This document shows, piece by piece, positions 16,731-38,287 of a DNA stretch of 64,000 nt. Numbering within the stretch: the first letter of the stretch is position 1; each line of letters begins with the position of its first letter. The notes under the pieces are model-generated. The model was not told the origin of the DNA. It saw only the letters and a list, made by a program, of their open reading frames with translations, and searched no databases. Location of the stretch: positions 60,172-124,171 of IMG/VR virus record IMGVR_UViG_3300048851_000098. One strand, 5' to 3'. The DNA comes from a virus. The position numbers and the translations under genes are program-made.

Positions 16731-16939
16731 CGAATCACCAGTTTCAACAATCCACCGCAACGTCGTCCATGTTCTTTGACGTGAACGCCTTGACGTTGAA
16801 TTTCACCAATTGCACTGCAACAGGCTTTGATAGGCAAAACAGTGCCACCACGCGGACAAAGAAAGTTCCTCATCCACGAGTAGTTTCCGTTGTATCTACC
16901 GCCACAGCGCTGGCACTGGAATATGTATGACTTAGCCAT
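16727..16939 (-). CDS. Cys-rich small protein
   Basis: Start MAKSY at 16939; CQRC, LCP, CC, RCGG. Confidence 0.5.
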   Translation of the reverse strand: MAKSYIFQCQRCGGRYNGNYSWMRNFLCPRGGTVLPIKACCSAIGEIQRQGVHVKEHGRRCGGLLKLVIR

Positions 16940-17153
16940 CGTCGCTCGCAAGTCGCGACAGAAACGTTCCGATAGCGTCGTTGATGTCATCCCGGAATCT
17001 GACTATACGTCGAGAATCAGCCAGTACATCAGGAGTAACATCAATATTCAGCTTGTCAGCTTCGGACACCAGTTGGCGAAGCTCTTCGACCTGCTCATGA
17101 GAGAGCGAGAGCGCCAATTCCTTGATTTGCTCATCACTCATCATCAGGGTCAA
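16932..17153 (-). CDS. Hypothetical acidic helical protein
   Basis: ORF directly downstream of the tRNA-like RNA. Confidence 0.55.
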   Translation of the reverse strand: MTLMMSDEQIKELALSLSHEQVEELRQLVSEADKLNIDVTPDVLADSRRIVRFRDDINDAIGTFLSRLASDDG

Positions 17154-17309
17154 AAATTTACAGAATATTCCTTGAAATCATCCTATAAAGATAGGCAAAA
17201 CATCCAGCAAGAAGACGCTGCCGGGGTGGTCGCGATCTGCGCGGCCCCAGGGGGTTTAGGGCACTCGTTAGGGCAGACCGATCAACCAGGGGGCACCCCC
17301 GACAGCAGC

Positions 17310-17502
17310 ACGCAGGGTGGGATTTGAACCACACGACCTCCGGGTTGTATCGAGTCTCCGAGCGACTACTTGCGCGCCGGCCGGAATACGCAAGTGCTTA
17401 TCATCGGCTGTCCGGCGGTCGATGCCTCGACCCTCCATGTTTACCGATTTCCACCTGCTCTTTGACTCTTCCCGGTGCTCTACCAGACTGAGCTACCCGC
17501 GT
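17310..17502 (-). ncRNA. tRNA-like RNA with ~119-nt structured insertion in the anticodon loop
   Basis: Minus strand: acceptor ACGCGGG/CCTGCGT; D arm GCTC-AGTCTGGTA-GAGC; anticodon stem CCGGG/CCCGG enclosing 126 nt (17345-17470); AGGTC variable loop; GTTCAAATC T loop. No encoded CCA. Confidence 0.8.
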
Positions 17503-17630
17503 ATGTGATGGGTTGCGATTCCAGACCTTACGCAACCCGAATCGGATTCCCTCCCATACTTCACAGCGAATCCGATTGAATGAAGTAGTCTTCAGCCGCC
17601 CGTTACGACGTGGCTCATCTGGACTTCACT
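17503..17630 (-). ncRNA. Candidate structured RNA immediately 5' of the tRNA-like element
   Basis: Three stems on the minus strand (TGAAGT/ACTTCA, AATCGGATTC/GAATCCGATT, GGGTTGCG/CGCAACCC) plus a possible TCCAGA/TCTGGA pseudoknot, in a region with no credible ORF. Confidence 0.45.
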
Positions 17631-17671
17631 CATGCGATGCACTCTACAGTAGCTTGTGGGCTTTGTCAACC

Positions 17672-18106
17672 CTAGGCGGCGACAAGCTCGCGCCCGCGCA
17701 AGTCCTCCACGGCACGGTCAATGACCTCCGCGCATGCCTCTGCACCATTGCGCACCATGTAGTCCGTGAAGGGGTCTGCTCTCATATCGCTTTCGAAAAA
17801 CGTCGTCCCGGAATCTGCCTCTTCCGGGATGAACGGCATGACAGCCAATTGCGCTCTATCGGCGAGTGGACTGTCATCGAACAGCGATGGAACGACTGGA
17901 ATAACGCCGTAGCCATGCTCGCCCAAATCGTGTGCTGCCATCCGAATGCAGCCGACAAAGCAACCGCGCTCTGCTGTGCCAGTCCACGCCCCTTGAGCCC
18001 CGTCCGCAGTTTCGTACATAGAGTGAAGCGGGTCCTTCACCACTCTGTCAGGATCACGCAGCATTCTGGCGGCTGCTTCGAGCACGTCGATTTCAGAAAC
18101 GCTCAT
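17672..18106 (-). CDS. Conserved phage hypothetical protein
   Basis: AAAGGGACAG RBS variant; GCFVGCI motif; N-terminal VLEAAARML. Confidence 0.7.
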   Translation of the reverse strand: MSVSEIDVLEAAARMLRDPDRVVKDPLHSMYETADGAQGAWTGTAERGCFVGCIRMAAHDLGEHGYGVIPVVPSLFDDSPLADRAQLAVMPFIPEEADSGTTFFESDMRADPFTDYMVRNGAEACAEVIDRAVEDLRGRELVAA

Positions 18107-18372
18107 CTTCTGTCCCTTTCTGCTTCAAGATCCGATACGAGTACATTGATCGGATTTTTGAAATCTGCGGCCAGTTCATCACAGATGATTTCTGCTTCGC
18201 CGTACTCATCATTGATTTCATGAATAGTGCATCTGAGACGGCTTACATTTTCTGATTTGAGTGAGCAGATTTTTCTTAGGAGAAGCGCGTTTGGATACCA
18301 ACCAGAATGCTCTCGAATAACTTCTTCGAGTTCATCTGACAGGATCAGATACGCTGTGTCACCGGTTTGCAT
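18103..18372 (-). CDS. Hypothetical protein
   Basis: Start MQTGD at 18372 (TAATG coupling). Confidence 0.55.
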   Translation of the reverse strand: MQTGDTAYLILSDELEEVIREHSGWYPNALLLRKICSLKSENVSRLRCTIHEINDEYGEAEIICDELAADFKNPINVLVSDLEAERDRR

Positions 18373-18830
18373 TAGCCGATGATTCCGAGCACGGCACTGA
18401 CCTTCGCCAGTTCCTTCTGCCACTCGGCCTTTTCTCTTTCTGCTTGCTCGATTACTCTGTCCTGCCAAGCAATTCTCTCGCGAAGGAAATCGCAATGCTC
18501 GGTAGCGCTTTTGTACAACGCCGGAATCAGGTTACCCTCGTGAGTTGATTCTTTGAGAGGCAGACGTGATCTGTCGTCGTACTTCGTTTGTGTTGAGCTA
18601 ACTGTGCTTCGAGGATCTACAGGCAGCTCAAGCCCCAGGCGTCTTGCGCCACGGCGAATTTTCTTCGCACTGAAGCCTGTTGCATCTTCGATCTGCGTCC
18701 ACGTCAGCCCATCGTGACGCATCTCAACTGCCCATCTAATTCTGAAGTCGTCGCCTTGGTTTGGCTCCTCCTCCACCGCCACTGACTCGCGTGCCTCTTC
18801 GCCAGTGACCCCTTCCTCGGTTACCACCAC
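18372..18830 (-). CDS. HTH DNA-binding protein with C-terminal coiled coil
   Basis: AVEMRHDGLTWTQIEDATGFSAKKIRR helix-turn-helix. Confidence 0.65.
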   Translation of the reverse strand: MVVTEEGVTGEEARESVAVEEEPNQGDDFRIRWAVEMRHDGLTWTQIEDATGFSAKKIRRGARRLGLELPVDPRSTVSSTQTKYDDRSRLPLKESTHEGNLIPALYKSATEHCDFLRERIAWQDRVIEQAEREKAEWQKELAKVSAVLGIIG

Positions 18831-18850
18831 GACTCCTTTCCTCGTGTTCC

Positions 18851-20533
18851 TTAGATGCTCTCCTGAATGAACTGCGCCATGATCTGTGGTGCGCCAGAGT
18901 CGAACCCGACGACATCCAACATGCCTGGATCTCTTGGGTTAGCGATGCTGTATTCGGTAGCTGTGTAGGCAGCAGCAATCAGCTTTGCTCTGATACCGCT
19001 TTCCTTGCGATAGAACTCCAAAGCTTGCGATGCGTGAATCCCACCATTCCACGACTCGTTATCGGTGTGGATCTCGAAAACGTCGTATTCCTTGCCGTTC
19101 TCACGGGCGTACATGATTGGCAGTGCGCAATCTGTAGCACCCATAAACGGAGACATCGCTCGCATCGCGCGATCAACATCATCGAGACGCTGACGGGGGC
19201 TGAGTGCCATCGGTGTCAAGCCAGGGTAGATCTCTCTACCGGAGTTCCGACTGCGGTAATAACTGTCCCCTCCGCTGGTAAACGCAACCACGTCGTAGGG
19301 ATCGCCCGTCTTCATGCTGGCGAGCGACATCGCACCGGCCGCCTCTGCGGCCACGAACCCTTCGATGCCGGCGACGTACCTCGGGTACGCGCCCCACATC
19401 GAACCGGAGATATCGAGCGCAATCAGACGACGTGCGCCAGTCGGCTCCAAATTGTCGAACGCGAGATAGAACGCCTCATCGAGGGCGTCGAGAATCTGAG
19501 GCACAGGTGTCCACGTCTGCCCGCGCCGGCCCACCCCCGCCGCATAGGTCTTTGAGGCCAGCAGCACGTTGGCAGGGTGGATTCGCGCAGCGCTGATTAC
19601 CTCCGCGTCAGTGAGCGTTCTGCGGATGATGTCCGTCTCTCTGCTTGTGCCAGTGATCACACCATCGCGTGTCATGTTGGCGAGATTGCGAATCATCGCC
19701 GTCATGGGCATTTGTGCATTCAGAAGTGCAGACCAGACCTCGGGCTGATTTCTGTGCTCAGTCAGAATCGCCTCGCGTGGCAGACGGAATCTTTCGATCA
19801 GTCTGGCAGTAGCTCTCGGCGTTCTCGCTCTGAGAGCCTTGCCGGCAGCCTGCACGATCTCCGGGAGATCTCTTTTCTTTCCCTTGTATCTGTTGGTCGC
19901 CCACTGGAAGAGCATCTTCATCTCTTCCATATCTTCGTGAACAACTCTCTCGCGATCCTCTGGATTTGGATGTGCGAGACGCAACAGATCCTCGTGCGAC
20001 CATCCGTCGCGCTGTGGATACTTCACGAGCTGGTAGGCGAGCTTCGGAATTGGCTTCTTCAGATACCAATTCGCCACGGCGTTTCTCATACCACGGCCCC
20101 AGCCGGCGAACTGCTCGCGGAACGTAACGAATTGGAACAAATGTGTGCCGATACGGCAGACATTGTTCACGTTCTCGAATGCGTACTGGCGTGTTGCGTC
20201 ATCACCAAGCGCAGAGGCCATGGCGAGAGCGAACACGGCTTGATCATTCTTCGGTGCGCGAGCGTCCATCGAGATTTCAACGATGGTGTCCACGGTTCTG
20301 ATTCCGTCAAGTTTGCAACACTCGATTACGCACTCGGCGTTTTCACGAGTCAGCTTGCGCTCACCCGTGTAGTAGGTCCCGCCCTCGGAACCGAGAATGA
20401 GGAATCGCCGCAGACGAGCAAAGGGATCGATCTCATAGACGAAACCACCAGCGTTGTTCTCGACCTGATCTTGACCAGGGATCGGTTCGCTCTGTGGTGT
20501 TTCTTTTGCTCCGTAATTTCTCAGATACGACAT
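18851..20533 (-). CDS. rsr: Ro60/TROVE + vWA RNA-binding protein (Rsr)
   Basis: QVENNAGGFVYEIDPFARLRRFLILGSEGGTYY, RIGTHLFQF, WGRGMRNAVANWY, LVKYPQRDGWSHEDLLRLAHP, MPMTAMIRNL, RIHPANVL, vWA ALDISGSM, HTDNESW, MLDVVGFDS. Confidence 0.97.
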   Translation of the reverse strand: MSYLRNYGAKETPQSEPIPGQDQVENNAGGFVYEIDPFARLRRFLILGSEGGTYYTGERKLTRENAECVIECCKLDGIRTVDTIVEISMDARAPKNDQAVFALAMASALGDDATRQYAFENVNNVCRIGTHLFQFVTFREQFAGWGRGMRNAVANWYLKKPIPKLAYQLVKYPQRDGWSHEDLLRLAHPNPEDRERVVHEDMEEMKMLFQWATNRYKGKKRDLPEIVQAAGKALRARTPRATARLIERFRLPREAILTEHRNQPEVWSALLNAQMPMTAMIRNLANMTRDGVITGTSRETDIIRRTLTDAEVISAARIHPANVLLASKTYAAGVGRRGQTWTPVPQILDALDEAFYLAFDNLEPTGARRLIALDISGSMWGAYPRYVAGIEGFVAAEAAGAMSLASMKTGDPYDVVAFTSGGDSYYRSRNSGREIYPGLTPMALSPRQRLDDVDRAMRAMSPFMGATDCALPIMYARENGKEYDVFEIHTDNESWNGGIHASQALEFYRKESGIRAKLIAAAYTATEYSIANPRDPGMLDVVGFDSGAPQIMAQFIQESI

Positions 20534-20574
20534 TTCGATCCCTTCGCATATGTGATTTCTTCAGCGCCCCTAAG

Positions 20575-20674
20575 AGGCTACGAACCTCTATCTGTTATCG
20601 GAAAGCTCAGCCGGTGTGCATCGCCTGCGCGTGGCCGCGTTAGAAGCACGACCAGCGAGAGGGACCGGCAGCCT
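20575..20674 (-). ncRNA. Y-RNA-like element 4 (divergent, ~100 nt)
   Basis: Termini pair (AGGCTGC/GTAGCCT), followed by an unpaired C and CCTCT/AGAGG; shares terminal sequence with element 3; lacks TTATCTC. Confidence 0.45.
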
Positions 20675-20716
20675 ATGACACTTTCCAACAGGACTCGTAC
20701 GAGAGTCGGGGCAAGA

Positions 20717-20855
20717 AAGGCTACGAGCAAATTGTTTGGATTCGATATAGGCGCTCTAACCAGGCTGAGCTACACGCCTTTTGAGCGTGACGGGATTCGA
20801 ACCCGCGACCTCCCTCTTATGCGGAGATAATCGATTCCATCCGGCTCGTAGCCTT
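20717..20855 (-). ncRNA. yrlA: Y RNA element 3 with circularly permuted tRNA-like domain (YrlA type)
   Basis: 12-bp terminal stem AAGGCTACGAGC/GCTCGTAGCCTT, bulged C, GGA/TTT, TTATCTC; then T arm GCGGG-TTCGAAT-CCCGT, looped acceptor CACGCT-CAAAA-GGCGTG, D arm GCTC-AGCCTGGTTA-GAGC. Confidence 0.85.
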
Positions 20856-20862
20856 CAAGAGA

Positions 20863-20935
20863 TCTCGCGAACAAATAGTTGGTGATGGGTATTGTCTGTT
20901 CGATAGAGATAACCCAAAACCTCCGGCTCGCGAGA
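20863..20935 (-). ncRNA. Y RNA element 2, minimal (~73 nt, no tRNA domain)
   Basis: TCTCGCGAGC/GTTCGCGAGA stem, bulged C, GGA/TTT, GGGT..AT/ATACCC, TTATCTC, 3' AACTATTTGTTCG; same scaffold as elements 1 and 3. Confidence 0.8.
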
Positions 20936-20957
20936 GCAGTTATTCAGTTGTAAGGGG

Positions 20958-21099
20958 CTGGTCGAACAAATTAGTTGAAAAGCGAGATTTTTTACCACTG
21001 CTCTACCAATTGAGCTACCGACGCTCTTCGAGCCTCGGGCAGGAATCGAACCTGCAACCTTTGGTCCCTGAGATAACGCTTATCGTCCGGCTCGACCAG
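20958..21099 (-). ncRNA. yrlA: Y RNA element 1 with circularly permuted tRNA-like domain (YrlA type)
   Basis: CTGGTCGAGC/GTTCGACCAG stem, bulged C, AAGCG/CGCTT, TTATCTC; T arm GCAGG-TTCGATT-CCTGC, looped acceptor CCGAGGCTC-GAA-GAGCGTCGG, D arm GCTC-AATTGGTA-GAGC. Confidence 0.85.
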
Positions 21100-21513
21100 T
21101 TGTAACTATTTTCTCCTTGACCCTCGCCAATCAGCTCTTCGTGTCTTTCTATTATGAGCCCATTTTCTTGCTGCTCTTCTAGCAGTGGCCCACATAAATC
21201 TACGCTGCTTTTCACTTCTGAATTTACCGCCGCCATGTTTTCTCTGGCGAGAGCGAGAAGCCATTTTCATCTATCTCCCGAAAATCTCTTCCGCCCGACA
21301 TCCGAAGCATACCATGAGATCCGAATCAGATGCAAGGAATCCCTGCAAAAGAAAAGAACTGCCGAGAGATCGCGATACGCGGTGTCTCTCGACAGTCCTT
21401 TTCCCCCAACACAGCGACCAGGCGGGACGTGGTCACTGTCATGGTGAGCCTGCAAGCGAATGCCGGAAGAGGATCAGCAAAACCGGCGGGCTTGCAGGCT
21501 CTCCACGATTATA

Positions 21514-21870
21514 TCAGTCTCTTTCGTGTTCCCGCATGATCTCGTGCGCTTGAATGTCAGCCTCTTCGAGATCATGCACGAGTCTGATTGCTTCTTCGAG
21601 AGTTTCACAGGAATGCACTTCAACATCCCATTTACTTGGCTTTCGACCAGGATATGAAATTTCTCGACCGCTGTCATCCAGAATCAAAATCTCGCCAACG
21701 TGGAAGACTGGTGCTCGCATCACCAATGCAAGCTGAAGAGGAATAGGAGAGAATTTTCCATCATCTCCATATTGCTTTTCAGGATTATCTGAATACAGCT
21801 CGAAAGCAGCAGCCAGATTACCACCTGTCTCTGGTTCGCACACTCTGGTGACAACAGCGAATTCAGCCAT
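21514..21870 (-). CDS. Hypothetical protein
   Basis: Likely start MAEFAV at 21870, overlapping the Fic stop. Confidence 0.6.
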   Translation of the reverse strand: MAEFAVVTRVCEPETGGNLAAAFELYSDNPEKQYGDDGKFSPIPLQLALVMRAPVFHVGEILILDDSGREISYPGRKPSKWDVEVHSCETLEEAIRLVHDLEEADIQAHEIMREHERD

Positions 21871-22336
21871 GATGTCTGTCAAGCGTGGCGTAGTACCAGA
21901 GCTGAAGGAACGGCAGTACGAACGGATCGTTGCCAAGCCTCATCATCTGCCAGGCCCACAGAGCGCGCCCGCTGCGGCCGTTGCCGTCCATGAACGGGTG
22001 GATGCGCTCGTACTCCGCGTGTGCGTCGTACGGGTTGTCCAGCACACCGTTCACAGCGTCTTGTATCCCGTCGAGCCAGTCGGTCAGGTACTTCACGACC
22101 AACGGCCCGCCTTGTGGCGGAACATGATTCCCCACAACCACAGAGTGATGATCCTGCGTCCGCAGTGGTGCGTTGGCTACCGTAGAAACGAATTCTTGTA
22201 TATCTTCGATTCTCAGGTAGTCCTTCATCCACAGATCTTCGTGCGCTCTGATCTCGCTCGCATTCGGACGACGAAAGATTCCCTCGATCCCGTTCGACTC
22301 TGTGATGAATGCTATTACCTTTTCTCTATTCATCAC
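21863..22336 (-). CDS. Fic-domain protein (AMPylase-like)
   Basis: Canonical HPFMDGNGRSGR; N-terminal SNGIEG fits the (S/T)xxxE(G/N) inhibitory motif. Confidence 0.92.
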   Translation of the reverse strand: MMNREKVIAFITESNGIEGIFRRPNASEIRAHEDLWMKDYLRIEDIQEFVSTVANAPLRTQDHHSVVVGNHVPPQGGPLVVKYLTDWLDGIQDAVNGVLDNPYDAHAEYERIHPFMDGNGRSGRALWAWQMMRLGNDPFVLPFLQLWYYATLDRHHG

Positions 22337-38214: not shown

Positions 38215-38287
38215 TACCCCTAGCGGGAGTTGAACCCGTCTCTACCAGCTTGAAAGGCTAGCGTGCTAACCGTTACACCATAGGGGC
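38215..38287 (-). tRNA. trnE: tRNA-Glu (anticodon UUC)
   Basis: GCCCCTA/TAGGGGT acceptor; D arm; CTAGC-CT-TTC-AA-GCTGG anticodon arm; GGG-TTCAACT-CCC T arm; no encoded CCA. Confidence 0.9.

What the first reader, a model, noticed from the sequence alone, without database searches (positions are those of the whole stretch)
18851..21099. Phage Ro60 (rsr) preceded by a tandem array of four Y-RNA-like elements
Seen: on the same strand and directly upstream of an unmistakable TROVE/vWA gene, ~520 bp with no credible ORF resolve into four units of 142, 73, 139 and 100 nt whose 5' and 3' ends base-pair. Units 1-3 share CGAGC-C-GGA...TTATCTC at the 5' end and AAC-N-(A)ATTTG(T/C)TCG at the 3' end, with compensatory terminal stems (CTGGT/ACCAG, TCTCG/CGAGA, AAGGCTA/TAGCCTT) and a bulged C. 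Known: Ro60 binds a bulged-C helix in Y RNAs, and bacterial and some phage rsr genes sit beside Y RNAs. Inference: this phage builds several distinct Ro60 RNPs from one protein, more than the single phage Y RNA I know of, perhaps to counter RNA-targeting defence or to redirect host nucleases such as PNPase.
Basis: partly seen in the sequence, partly recalled or inferred. Interest (0 to 1): 0.9.

Follow-up and report, generated by a model that had tools for sequence, protein, structure and literature searches.

The report
Phage Ro60 gene with three Y RNAs
An uncultivated soil phage carries a Ro60 (Rsr) RNA-binding protein gene preceded by three genuine Y-RNA genes, not four; this is an ordinary example of a known protein-RNA partnership, and such RNA arrays prove common in phages.

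Summary
The gene at 18851-20533 (minus strand) is a clear Ro60/Rsr: it has TROVE and Ro60-vWA domains and matches solved Ro60 structures at E about 1e-103. Units 1-3 are real Y RNAs. I built a covariance model only from other phages' Ro60 loci. In the whole 64-kb window, both strands, it hits exactly these three sites (54, 41 and 34 bits). Units 1 and 3 also match Rfam YrlA (E about 1e-7, below the gathering score) and carry T arm, closed acceptor-like stem and D arm. Unit 2 is a minimal Y RNA resembling nematode sbRNAs.

Unit 4 is not supported. It gets no model match even with filters off, has no homologue, and folds only weakly better than shuffles (z -2.1). It is probably the structured rsr leader.

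A fourth true Y RNA with the same private consensus lies outside the window, abutting the last tRNA of the phage's 27-tRNA array.

The arrangement is not unusual. In 73 other phage Ro60 loci the model found 127 Y-like RNAs, all on the Ro60 strand, with up to 7 per locus. Published work already describes phage YrlA RNAs (2014) and two Y-like RNAs in Thermus phage phiLo (2025). This scan has also noted Ro60-like genes with RNA arrays in other phages. Expression and Ro60 binding remain untested.

The parts
18851..20533 (-). rsr / Ro60 gene (560 aa; TROVE HEAT-repeat ring plus vWA domain with a DxSxS MIDAS motif)
   Evidence: Pfam TROVE 8.8e-48 and vWA_Ro60 7.2e-45. PHROG 850 RNA-binding protein 2e-73. 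PDB 9nen, 1yvp and 2nvo at E 1e-103 to 1e-102, aligned over nearly the full length.
20958..21099 (-). Y RNA 1, YrlA-type (142 nt). A 10-bp terminal stem, bulged C and GGA/UUU, then a second helix. The tRNA-like module runs: short variable-arm-like hairpin, T arm (GCAGG-UUCGAUU-CCUGC), closed acceptor-like stem, D arm.
   Evidence: R1 34.1 bits, E 3.4e-7. Rfam YrlA 41.7 bits, E 1.2e-7, below the gathering score of 69. Fold z -3.6. The D-arm stretch is 23/23 identical to the phage's own tRNA-Arg(UCU).
20863..20935 (-). Y RNA 2, minimal type (73 nt): terminal stem, bulged C, second helix and a loop beginning UUAUCUC; no tRNA-like module.
   Evidence: R1 54 bits, E 8.6e-13. Rfam nematode sbRNA family RF01656 30.4 bits, E 5e-4, below the gathering score of 38. 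Fold z -3.8.
20717..20855 (-). Y RNA 3, YrlA-type (139 nt). A 12-13-bp terminal stem, bulged C, second helix. The module has a long variable-arm-like hairpin, T arm (GCGGG-UUCGAAU-CCCGU), a 6-bp closed acceptor-like stem and a D arm.
   Evidence: R1 41.4 bits, E 2.9e-9. Rfam YrlA 42.9 bits, E 5.4e-8. Fold z -4.9.
20534..20716 (-). 183-nt leader between Y RNA 3 and the rsr start codon. It is not a Y RNA by any test here.
   Evidence: No R1 hit with filters off, no Rfam hit, no BLAST similarity anywhere. Fold z -2.1 for the 103-nt hairpin and -0.7 in a 150-nt context. The inner hairpin loop CUUCUAA equals the anticodon loop of the phage tRNA-Arg(UCU); this is a post hoc observation.
21106..21270 (-). 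Small, very basic 54-aa ORF with a GGGAG ribosome-binding site, ending 7 nt before Y RNA 1. It probably shares a transcript with the Y RNAs. Whether it is a real gene is uncertain.
   Evidence: ORF list, sequence, translation. No Pfam hit and no relatives in the other loci.
21306..21335 (-). Weak candidate promoter (TTGCAT, 18-nt spacer, TGGTATGCT extended -10) that would drive the small ORF, Y RNAs 1-3 and rsr. Inferred only.
   Evidence: Read from the sequence. It falls below the threshold of the consensus scan.
21347..21396 (-). Intrinsic-terminator-like element (12-bp stem plus U-rich tail) that closes the preceding transcription unit and so marks the upstream limit of the Y RNA/rsr unit.
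   Evidence: Sequence. Weak Rfam ctRNA-like hairpin-plus-U-run match at 21345-21400.

Best explanation
The locus is a phage Ro60/Y-RNA module. Three small non-coding Y RNAs lie head to tail on the rsr strand, separated by 22-nt and 7-nt spacers. They are most likely transcribed together with rsr and cut out by host RNases (inferred).

Each forms a terminal stem from its 5' and 3' ends, followed by a bulged C and a GGA/UUU step. This is the same architecture as the GGUC-C-GA Ro60-binding helix of animal Y RNAs. The phage Ro60 ring should bind this helix on its outer surface (inferred by homology).

The parts beyond the helix differ. Y RNAs 1 and 3 carry a permuted tRNA-like body (T arm, loop-closed acceptor stem, D arm), as bacterial YrlA does. 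Y RNA 2 has only a small loop. The phage therefore makes several Ro60 RNPs with different adaptor modules. By analogy with Deinococcus Rsr-Yrn1-PNPase and Thermus phage phiLo, these would tether or gate Ro60 with host partners such as PNPase, since the phage record encodes no PNPase, RtcB or Rnl2-type ligase.

The 100-nt 'unit 4' is not a Y RNA. It is most likely structured 5' leader of the rsr mRNA. A fourth true Y RNA with the same private Ro-binding consensus sits at the 3' end of the phage's tRNA array, outside the window.
For: - Ro60 identity. The segment KY.QR.GWSH.DLLRL.H aligns with X. laevis Ro60 residues 170-187, and the vWA DxSxS motif is present.
- Independent model: R1 was built from 34 units of other phage loci. 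It hits only units 2, 3 and 1 in the whole window.
- Family-level covariation: 130 aligned matches are 89.3% paired, against 35-52% when partners are slid. The covariation score is 0.745 against 0.10-0.18, and 0 of 500 shuffles reach it.
- Genomic association: all 127 matches in 73 other Ro60 loci lie on the Ro60 strand, within about 2 kb of the gene.
- tRNA-like modules: full-length Rfam YrlA alignments, E 5e-8 and 1e-7, and folds.
- Shared private consensus: all four Y RNAs of this phage keep CGAGCCGGA...TTATCT...ATTTG(T/C)TCG while their terminal stems differ.
- Fourth copy: G000 C1:42012-42108, R1 28.6 bits.
- Unit 4 negatives.
- No RtcB, RNA_ligase or RNase_PH domain in the phage record.
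- Literature: PMC4201824, PMC12135203, PMC11277228 for GGUCCGA and the bulge.
Against: - No expression or binding data exist.
- Both YrlA matches are below Rfam's gathering score (about 42 against 69 bits).
- No close relative of this phage was found (best Ro60 identity 48%). Covariation is therefore shown for the family, not for orthologues of each unit.
- The seed units for R1 were picked by a pattern scan that required the motif and a paired terminal stem. Covariation in that stem is partly built in; the second helix and the 96 non-seed matches are freer of this bias.
- Co-transcription, processing and the host partner are inferences.
- The promoter call is weak.
Confidence: 0.85

Rival explanations
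1. One reading: all four units are Y RNAs, with unit 4 a divergent Ro60 partner that lacks the canonical helix. This would resemble the weaker Rsr-bound RNAs a, b and d of Deinococcus.
For: Unit 4 lies in the array on the same strand and its ends can pair (11 bp with a bulge). The 183-nt gap to the start codon is longer than in relatives (20-83 nt in L003, L005, L006 and L008). Deinococcus has weakly bound extra RNAs.
Against: It has no Ro-binding motif. It gets no R1 match with filters off, no Rfam match and no homologue. The fold is not clearly better than shuffles (z -2.1, and -0.7 in context).
Confidence: 0.08
2. The Y-like modules are not released as small RNAs. They act in cis as Ro60-binding sites in a long rsr 5' leader, giving autoregulation of rsr translation or stability.
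For: There is no room for separate promoters or terminators between units (7- and 22-nt spacers). The consensus scan found no promoter or terminator inside the array. The array sits between a small ORF and rsr.
Against: In every studied system the upstream, same-strand Y RNAs accumulate as discrete Ro60-bound RNAs (Deinococcus, Salmonella, M. smegmatis). In 28 of 127 cases the arrays lie downstream of Ro60, where a leader role is impossible. A fourth copy sits 39 kb away beside a tRNA.
Confidence: 0.07
3. The units are decayed tRNA genes or tRNA-derived relics with no link to Ro60.
For: Units 1 and 3 contain T and D arms nearly identical to the phage's own tRNAs (23/23 and 18/18 nt).
Against: The arm order is permuted (T arm, closed acceptor, D arm), so they cannot be simple pseudogenes. 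ARAGORN and the Rfam tRNA model do not call them. Unit 2 has no tRNA part yet scores best with the Y model. The Ro-binding helix covaries across 130 RNAs that are strictly linked to Ro60 by strand.
Confidence: 0.02

Closest known systems
Bacterial Rsr with YrlA/YrlB (Salmonella Typhimurium, Mycobacterium smegmatis; Rfam RF02553; Chen et al. 2014, PMC4201824)
   Same: Y RNAs are encoded just upstream of rsr on the same strand. One class carries a permuted tRNA-like module (T arm, closed acceptor-like stem, D arm). A second, shorter Y RNA sits in the same locus. That paper also reported YrlA in 22 phages.
   Different: Here both strands of the Ro-binding helix are recognisably like the animal one; in Salmonella and M. 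smegmatis only the 5' strand is recognisable. The motif is CCGGA rather than CGAA. There are longer variable-arm-like hairpins. There are two YrlA-type RNAs plus one minimal RNA at the locus, and one more at the tRNA array. Scores are below the RF02553 gathering threshold.
Thermus phage phiLo Ro60 with Yrl1 and Yrl2 (NAR 2025, PMC12135203)
   Same: A phage Ro60 with more than one Y-like RNA directly upstream. The phage has no PNPase of its own. In phiLo, the RNAs bind Ro60 and host PNPase in vitro.
   Different: phiLo has two RNAs, described as stem-bulge-stem with a CGAA motif; no tRNA-like module was reported in the text I read. Here there are three plus one, two of them with tRNA-like bodies. 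No phiLo sequence was compared directly.
Deinococcus radiodurans Rsr-Yrn1-PNPase (RYPER) with Yrn2
   Same: Several small RNAs are encoded upstream of rsr. Both strands of the Ro-binding helix resemble animal Y RNAs. The Y RNA acts as a tether between Ro60 and an exoribonuclease.
   Different: The order of the tRNA-like arms differs in Yrn1. Tethering to PNPase is not tested here.
Animal Y RNAs and nematode stem-bulge RNAs (sbRNAs; Rfam RF01656)
   Same: A terminal stem, a bulged C in a GGUC-C-GA-like context, a second helix, then a UUAUC-containing loop. Unit 2 aligns end to end with the sbRNA model. sbRNAs are Y RNA homologues (PMC4726728).
   Different: The match is below gathering (30.4 against 38 bits). 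There is no oligo-U/La-binding tail. The host domain of life differs. This is a resemblance in architecture, not demonstrated common descent.
Coliphage Bas63 gp130, a Ro60-like protein beside a tRNA stretch (PhageMaP preprint, PMC11482910)
   Same: A phage Ro60-like protein for which the authors suggest that neighbouring tRNA-like genes are Y RNAs. It gives experimental evidence that such a protein counters a host defence (Ppl).
   Different: gp130 is a structural look-alike rather than a clear TROVE/vWA_Ro60 protein. No defence link has been tested for the present phage.

Membership tests
Ro60/Rsr protein (TROVE + Ro60 vWA) | TROVE HEAT-repeat domain followed by a Ro60-type vWA domain | tested here: met
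   Pfam PF05731 164 bits (cut-off 23) and PF25045 153 bits (cut-off 27.7).
Ro60/Rsr protein (TROVE + Ro60 vWA) | Full-length similarity to solved Ro60 rings | tested here: met
   9nen, 1yvp and 2nvo match at E 1e-103 to 1e-102, covering query residues 5/14 to 556/557.
Ro60/Rsr protein (TROVE + Ro60 vWA) | MIDAS DxSxS motif in the vWA domain | tested here: met
   D374, S376 and S378 are invariant in the five-phage alignment. They align with DVSAS of X. laevis and human Ro60.
Y RNA (Ro60-binding small RNA, general) | 5' and 3' ends pair into a long stem that holds a conserved helix with a bulged C (GGUC-C-GA type) | tested here: met
   Units 1-3 match R1 over all 69 positions, including the bulge position. 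The motif is cited from PMC11277228. Unit 4: not met.
Y RNA (Ro60-binding small RNA, general) | Base pairs of the binding stem are kept by compensatory change across relatives | tested here: met
   On 130 sequences, 17 of 20 pairs show changes on both sides; 89.3% of cells are paired against 35-52% when slid. Caveat: the alignment is fitted to the model and the seeds were chosen by pattern.
Y RNA (Ro60-binding small RNA, general) | Encoded close to the Ro60 gene on the same strand | tested here: met
   The units lie 183-566 nt upstream of rsr on the same strand. In other loci 127 of 127 matches are on the Ro60 strand.
Y RNA (Ro60-binding small RNA, general) | Accumulates as a discrete small RNA bound by Ro60 | not testable with these tools
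   No RNA sequencing run holding this DNA is listed. Needs Northern blot, RIP or EMSA.
YrlA (Rfam RF02553) | Score at or above the family's gathering threshold (69 bits) | tested here: not met
   42.9 and 41.7 bits. E-values are 5e-8 and 1e-7, with full-length model coverage.
YrlA (Rfam RF02553) | tRNA-like module in the order T arm, closed acceptor-like stem-loop, D arm | tested here: met
   Shown in the cmscan alignments and the MFE folds for units 1 and 3. T loops are UUCGAUU and UUCGAAU; the D loops contain GG.
YrlA (Rfam RF02553) | GNCGAAN0-1G motif on the 5' strand (Chen et al. 2014) | tested here: inconclusive
   The window units read GCCGGA(N)G, with one change (A to G). The phage-family consensus is GCCGAAG, and about 40% of seeds carry GGA.
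Nematode sbRNA (Rfam RF01656) | Score at or above gathering (38 bits) | tested here: not met
   Unit 2 scores 30.4 bits, E 5e-4. Treated as an architectural resemblance only.
tRNA | Cloverleaf with open acceptor stem and anticodon arm | tested here: not met
   ARAGORN and Rfam tRNA find only tRNA-Glu at 38215-38287 in the window. The units have closed acceptor stems and no anticodon loop.

The most novel reading that the evidence does not exclude
Uncultivated phages use Ro60 as a single platform served by a library of exchangeable Y-RNA adaptors: 2-7 per locus, minimal, tRNA-like, other large modules, and full tRNA bodies carrying an inserted Ro60-binding hairpin. In this phage the adaptors are copied from its own tRNA set. 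Y RNA 1 reproduces the D arm, anticodon-stem top and variable loop of tRNA-Arg(UCU). The rsr leader ('unit 4') displays the matching CUUCUAA anticodon loop. Together these would form a decoy or sensor system for host anticodon nucleases or tRNA-directed defences, rather than a generic RNA-decay helper.
Probability: 0.1. Interest if true: 0.75.

Novelty: new member of a known kind. Interest (0 to 1): 0.4.

Why it matters
On its own, the locus adds one more well-supported phage Ro60/Y-RNA module to a family known since 2014. Its main value is as a clean case. The phage has four Y RNAs that share one private Ro-binding consensus but carry different outer modules, and it has no nuclease or ligase partner of its own. 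That makes it a convenient system for asking what the outer modules recruit.

The survey done to test it has wider use. It gives a covariance model and about 130 new Y-RNA candidates from uncultivated phages. It shows that multi-RNA arrays are the rule rather than the exception. It also turns up tRNA bodies with an inserted Ro60-binding arm in several contigs. If confirmed, these would tighten the suspected link between Ro60, Y RNAs and tRNA biology during infection.

Tried and rejected
- **Rfam at gathering thresholds:** nothing at the locus; sub-threshold scans were needed. Rfam Y_RNA (RF00019) gave no match at E<=10.
- **Closer relatives of the phage**, sought to test orthologous covariation and conservation of unit 4: the best Ro60 identity in viral and metagenome contigs was 48%, so this could not be done.
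- **Unit 4:** BLAST against the phage genome and all loci found nothing. R1 with filters off found nothing. BLAST against the phage tRNAs found nothing. The reverse complement contains GTTATC and GCCGG in the wrong order and gets no plus-strand R1 hit, so this was rejected as coincidence.
- **Expression:** no RNA holder listed, so no reads were laid.
- **Conserved protein partners next to rsr:** the two downstream ORFs, the small basic ORF and the upstream ORFs have no relatives in the other loci. Pfam matches only the Fic protein.
- **RtcB, Rnl2-type RNA ligase and RNase PH/PNPase domains:** absent from the phage record, which is 85% complete.
- **tRNA-like element at 17310-17502 (-):** I asked whether it hides a permuted Ro-binding hairpin. 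It contains GCCGGA but lacks UUAUC and the pairing pattern, and gets no R1 or pattern hit. Not supported.
- **A second covariance model for the permuted hairpin:** started (alignment A6) but abandoned, because MAFFT mis-registered one helix strand and only 10 sequences were in hand.
- **Roles of Ro60 residues K170, R174 and H187:** I could not verify them in the held literature, so I use only the fact that this segment is conserved.
Full report
**What is there**

The window is the right-hand half of a 124-kb IMG/VR virus record. It has phage hallmark genes, such as portal-protein matches. A DNA run from a soil metagenome holds the stretch.

On the minus strand, 18851-20533 encodes a 560-aa protein with Pfam TROVE (8.8e-48) and vWA_Ro60 (7.2e-45) domains. 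It matches solved Ro60/Rsr structures (9nen, X. laevis 1yvp, D. radiodurans 2nvo) at E 1e-103 to 1e-102 over almost its whole length. The KY.QR.GWSH.DLLRL.H segment and the vWA DxSxS motif are conserved. The gene call is secure.

**The upstream RNAs**

Units 1-3 are 21099-20958, 20935-20863 and 20855-20717. They share CGAGC-C-GGA, then 8-9 nt, then TTATCT near the 5' end, and ATTTG(T/C)TCG near the 3' end. The outermost stem bases differ but stay complementary. Each folds with its ends paired and beats all 200 dinucleotide shuffles (z -3.6, -3.8, -4.9).

At permissive thresholds Rfam aligns units 3 and 1 end to end with YrlA (42.9 and 41.7 bits, E 5e-8 and 1e-7, gathering score 69). It aligns unit 2 with a nematode stem-bulge RNA family (30.4 bits, E 5e-4, gathering score 38). 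Stem-bulge RNAs are Y RNA homologues (PMC4726728).

In units 1 and 3 the alignments and folds show a T arm with a canonical T loop, a loop-closed acceptor-like stem and a D arm with GG. This is the YrlA order. Both also have a hairpin at the variable-arm position.

**An independent test**

I fetched Ro60 loci from other viral contigs: 6, then 80. I located short Y-like units with a simple pattern-and-stem scan. I aligned 34 of them, none from the window, and built covariance model R1.

On the whole 64-kb window, both strands, R1 hits exactly three places: unit 2 (54 bits, E 8.6e-13), unit 3 (41.4 bits, 2.9e-9) and unit 1 (34.1 bits, 3.4e-7). With filters off over 16800-21700, the next best score is 9 bits.

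In 73 non-redundant phage loci R1 finds 127 matches at E<=1e-3. All are on the Ro60 strand: 99 upstream and 28 just downstream of the gene.

On the 130-sequence model alignment, 89.3% of cells are paired, against 35-52% when partners are slid by 1-3 columns. The covariation score is 0.745 against 0.10-0.18, and 17 of 20 pairs show double changes.

Two caveats apply. My scan selected seeds for a paired terminal stem, and the alignment is fitted to the model. The second helix was not selected for, and 96 matches are not seeds.

**Unit 4**

The stretch at about 20692-20590 can form a long hairpin, but the fold is weak (z -2.1, 9 of 200 shuffles as good; -0.7 in a 150-nt context). It has none of the shared motifs. 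It gets no R1 or Rfam match and no similarity in the phage genome or any fetched locus.

I read it as structured rsr leader. The 183-nt gap is longer than in four relatives (20-83 nt), so an unrecognised RNA cannot be excluded.

Its inner hairpin has the 7-nt loop CUUCUAA, identical to the anticodon loop of the phage's tRNA-Arg(UCU). This was noticed post hoc and has no statistical weight by itself.

**A fourth true Y RNA**

Searching the whole phage record with R1 gave one more match, at C1:42012-42108 on the plus strand (L090:1501-1597; 28.6 bits). It starts at the last base of tRNA-Ala, the final gene of a 27-tRNA array.

It carries the same invariant CGAGCCGGA...TTATCT...ATTTGCTCG as units 1-3, plus a T-arm-like hairpin.

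**Transcription (inferred)**

A strong terminator-like hairpin with a U tail ends at about 21347. A weak extended -10 promoter candidate follows at 21335-21306. Next comes a 54-codon very basic ORF with a GGGAG ribosome-binding site, which ends 7 nt before unit 1.

Spacers between the units are 22 and 7 nt, and no promoter or terminator consensus lies inside the array. Co-transcription with rsr followed by processing is the simplest reading. It is not shown.

**How it likely works**

This part is by homology. In animal Y RNAs the Ro60 site is the conserved GGUCCGA helix with its bulged ninth nucleotide, and Y RNAs bind the outer surface of the ring (PMC11277228). By analogy, the phage Ro60 should bind the bulged-C helix of each Y RNA.

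In Deinococcus the rest of the Y RNA tethers Ro60 to PNPase (PMC4201824). In Thermus phage phiLo two upstream Y-like RNAs bind the phage Ro60 and host PNPase (PMC12135203).

The present phage record has no RNase PH/PNPase, RtcB or Rnl2-type ligase domain, so any effector would be a host protein.

The tRNA-like bodies of units 1 and 3 look copied from the phage's own tRNAs:
- Unit 1 shares 23/23 nt (D arm and top of the anticodon stem) and 17/19 nt (variable loop and T-stem start) with tRNA-Arg(UCU).
- Unit 3 shares 18/18 nt of T arm with an aberrant tRNA-Arg(CCG)-like gene, and 20/21 nt of D arm with tRNA-Ile.

D and T arms are conserved in general, so this is suggestive only.

**Comparison with what is known**

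YrlA-type RNAs within 4 kb and on the strand of Ro60 were reported in 254 bacteria and 22 phages. Two Y RNAs per locus are known in Salmonella and M. smegmatis, several in Deinococcus, and two in phage phiLo. A Ro60-like protein of coliphage Bas63 counters the Ppl defence, and its authors suspect that neighbouring tRNA-like genes are Y RNAs. Jumbo-phage surveys list ROT/TROVE proteins with a tRNA-like partner.

The window's locus is therefore a new member of a known kind. Its particular features are:
- an animal-like two-strand binding helix, reading CCGGA instead of CGAA;
- two YrlA-type RNAs plus one minimal RNA in tandem;
- a dispersed fourth copy at the tRNA array.

**How common are arrays?**

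In my 73 loci, 51 have at least 1 match, 41 at least 2, and 17 at least 3. The maximum is 7 (L077), with 5 in L006, L051 and L071.

Of the 130 aligned RNAs, 99 are shorter than 100 nt and 97 of those have neither arm motif. The 31 longer ones mostly carry T-arm and D-arm motifs.

In the isolated Gordonia phage Cashline a single R1 match lies just upstream of the annotated Ro-like gene. It is not annotated in the GenBank record. I found no paper describing arrays of more than two Y RNAs in phages, but the held library is incomplete. Other agents of this scan have already reported Ro60-like genes with four partner RNAs in Felix O1-type phages.

**Side observation in related loci**

Six RNAs in five contigs match the Rfam tRNA model over its full length, well above gathering (43-55 bits against 29), yet are 120-134 nt long. 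They are L003:1979-2101 and 2110-2237, L012:1764-1883, L030:1659-1781, L080:399-528 and L082:3996-4129.

Their extra 50-60 nt is a circularly permuted Ro-binding module. The second-helix 3' strand comes first, then A..CUUG, a 3-4-bp stem closed by a small loop, the bulged C, GA(A), the second-helix 5' strand, and UUAUC. A pattern scan found 18 such hairpins on the Ro60 strand of the loci and none on the other strand. None was found in the present phage.

**Verdict**

Interest is moderate to low for the locus itself. The array survey and the tRNA-embedded modules are the more interesting by-products.

Noticed in passing
L090:1501-1597 (= phage record G000 C1:42012-42108, + strand; outside the window): A fourth Y RNA (97 nt) with the same CGAGCCGGA...TTATCT...ATTTGCTCG consensus and a T-arm-like hairpin. 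It starts at the last base of tRNA-Ala, at the end of a 27-tRNA array 39 kb from rsr on the other strand.
   Followed up: yes
L003:1979-2101 and 2110-2237; L012:1764-1883; L030:1659-1781; L080:399-528; L082:3996-4129: Full tRNA bodies (Rfam tRNA 43-55 bits, model 1-71) of 120-134 nt. Each carries an extra arm that is a circularly permuted, loop-closed Ro60-binding helix. In several it sits between the D arm and an anticodon-like arm. A pattern scan gave 18 hits on the Ro60 strand and 0 on the opposite strand. I found no description of such tRNA-Y chimeras.
   Followed up: partly
L077, L006, L051, L071, L026, L028, L033, L036, L040, L076, L078, L083 (coordinates): Arrays of 4-7 Y-like RNAs beside Ro60 in uncultivated phage contigs, upstream or immediately downstream of the gene, mixing minimal, tRNA-like and other large modules. 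One 160-nt non-tRNA module is conserved between L005:1895-2050 and L006:2178-2338.
   Followed up: partly
window 17310-17502 (-): A tRNA-like body (7-bp acceptor stem, D arm, T arm) whose CCGGG/CCCGG anticodon stem encloses about 120 nt. It lies 1.35 kb downstream of rsr on the same strand. ARAGORN, Rfam tRNA and R1 do not call it. It contains GCCGGA but not the rest of the Ro-binding pattern.
   Followed up: partly
window 20958-21099 (-) and 20640-20665 (-), compared with G000 C1:38010-38084: Y RNA 1 shares 23/23 nt and 17/19 nt with the phage's own tRNA-Arg(UCU). The hairpin inside 'unit 4' has the identical anticodon loop CUUCUAA. This may be coincidence.
   Followed up: partly
window 21863-22336 (-): A 157-aa Fic/DOC-family protein gene (Pfam 7e-9) two genes upstream of the Y RNA array.
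   Followed up: no
window 21347-21520 (-): A TGATATAAT extended -10 element, a 12-bp hairpin and a strong terminator-like stem with a U tail. This is a possible small RNA unit just upstream of the Y RNA/rsr unit, also flagged by another reader.
   Followed up: no
window 21106-21270 (-): A 54-aa, extremely basic ORF (about 40% Arg+Lys) with a good ribosome-binding site, ending 7 nt before Y RNA 1. It has no homologues. L005 also has a small basic ORF, with a zinc-finger-like motif, ahead of its array.
   Followed up: partly
L005:981-1056 and 1176-1273; L006:1635-1730: Suppressor-type tRNAs with a CUA anticodon, one with a long variable arm, near the Ro60/Y RNA locus of related contigs. This hints at amber-codon reassignment or suppression in those phages.
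   Followed up: no
L113:3597-3723 (-) (Gordonia phage Cashline, MW534378.1): A 127-nt Y RNA candidate (R1 33.3 bits, E 1e-7) directly upstream of the annotated Ro-like RNA-binding protein gene. It is not annotated in the GenBank record.
   Followed up: partly
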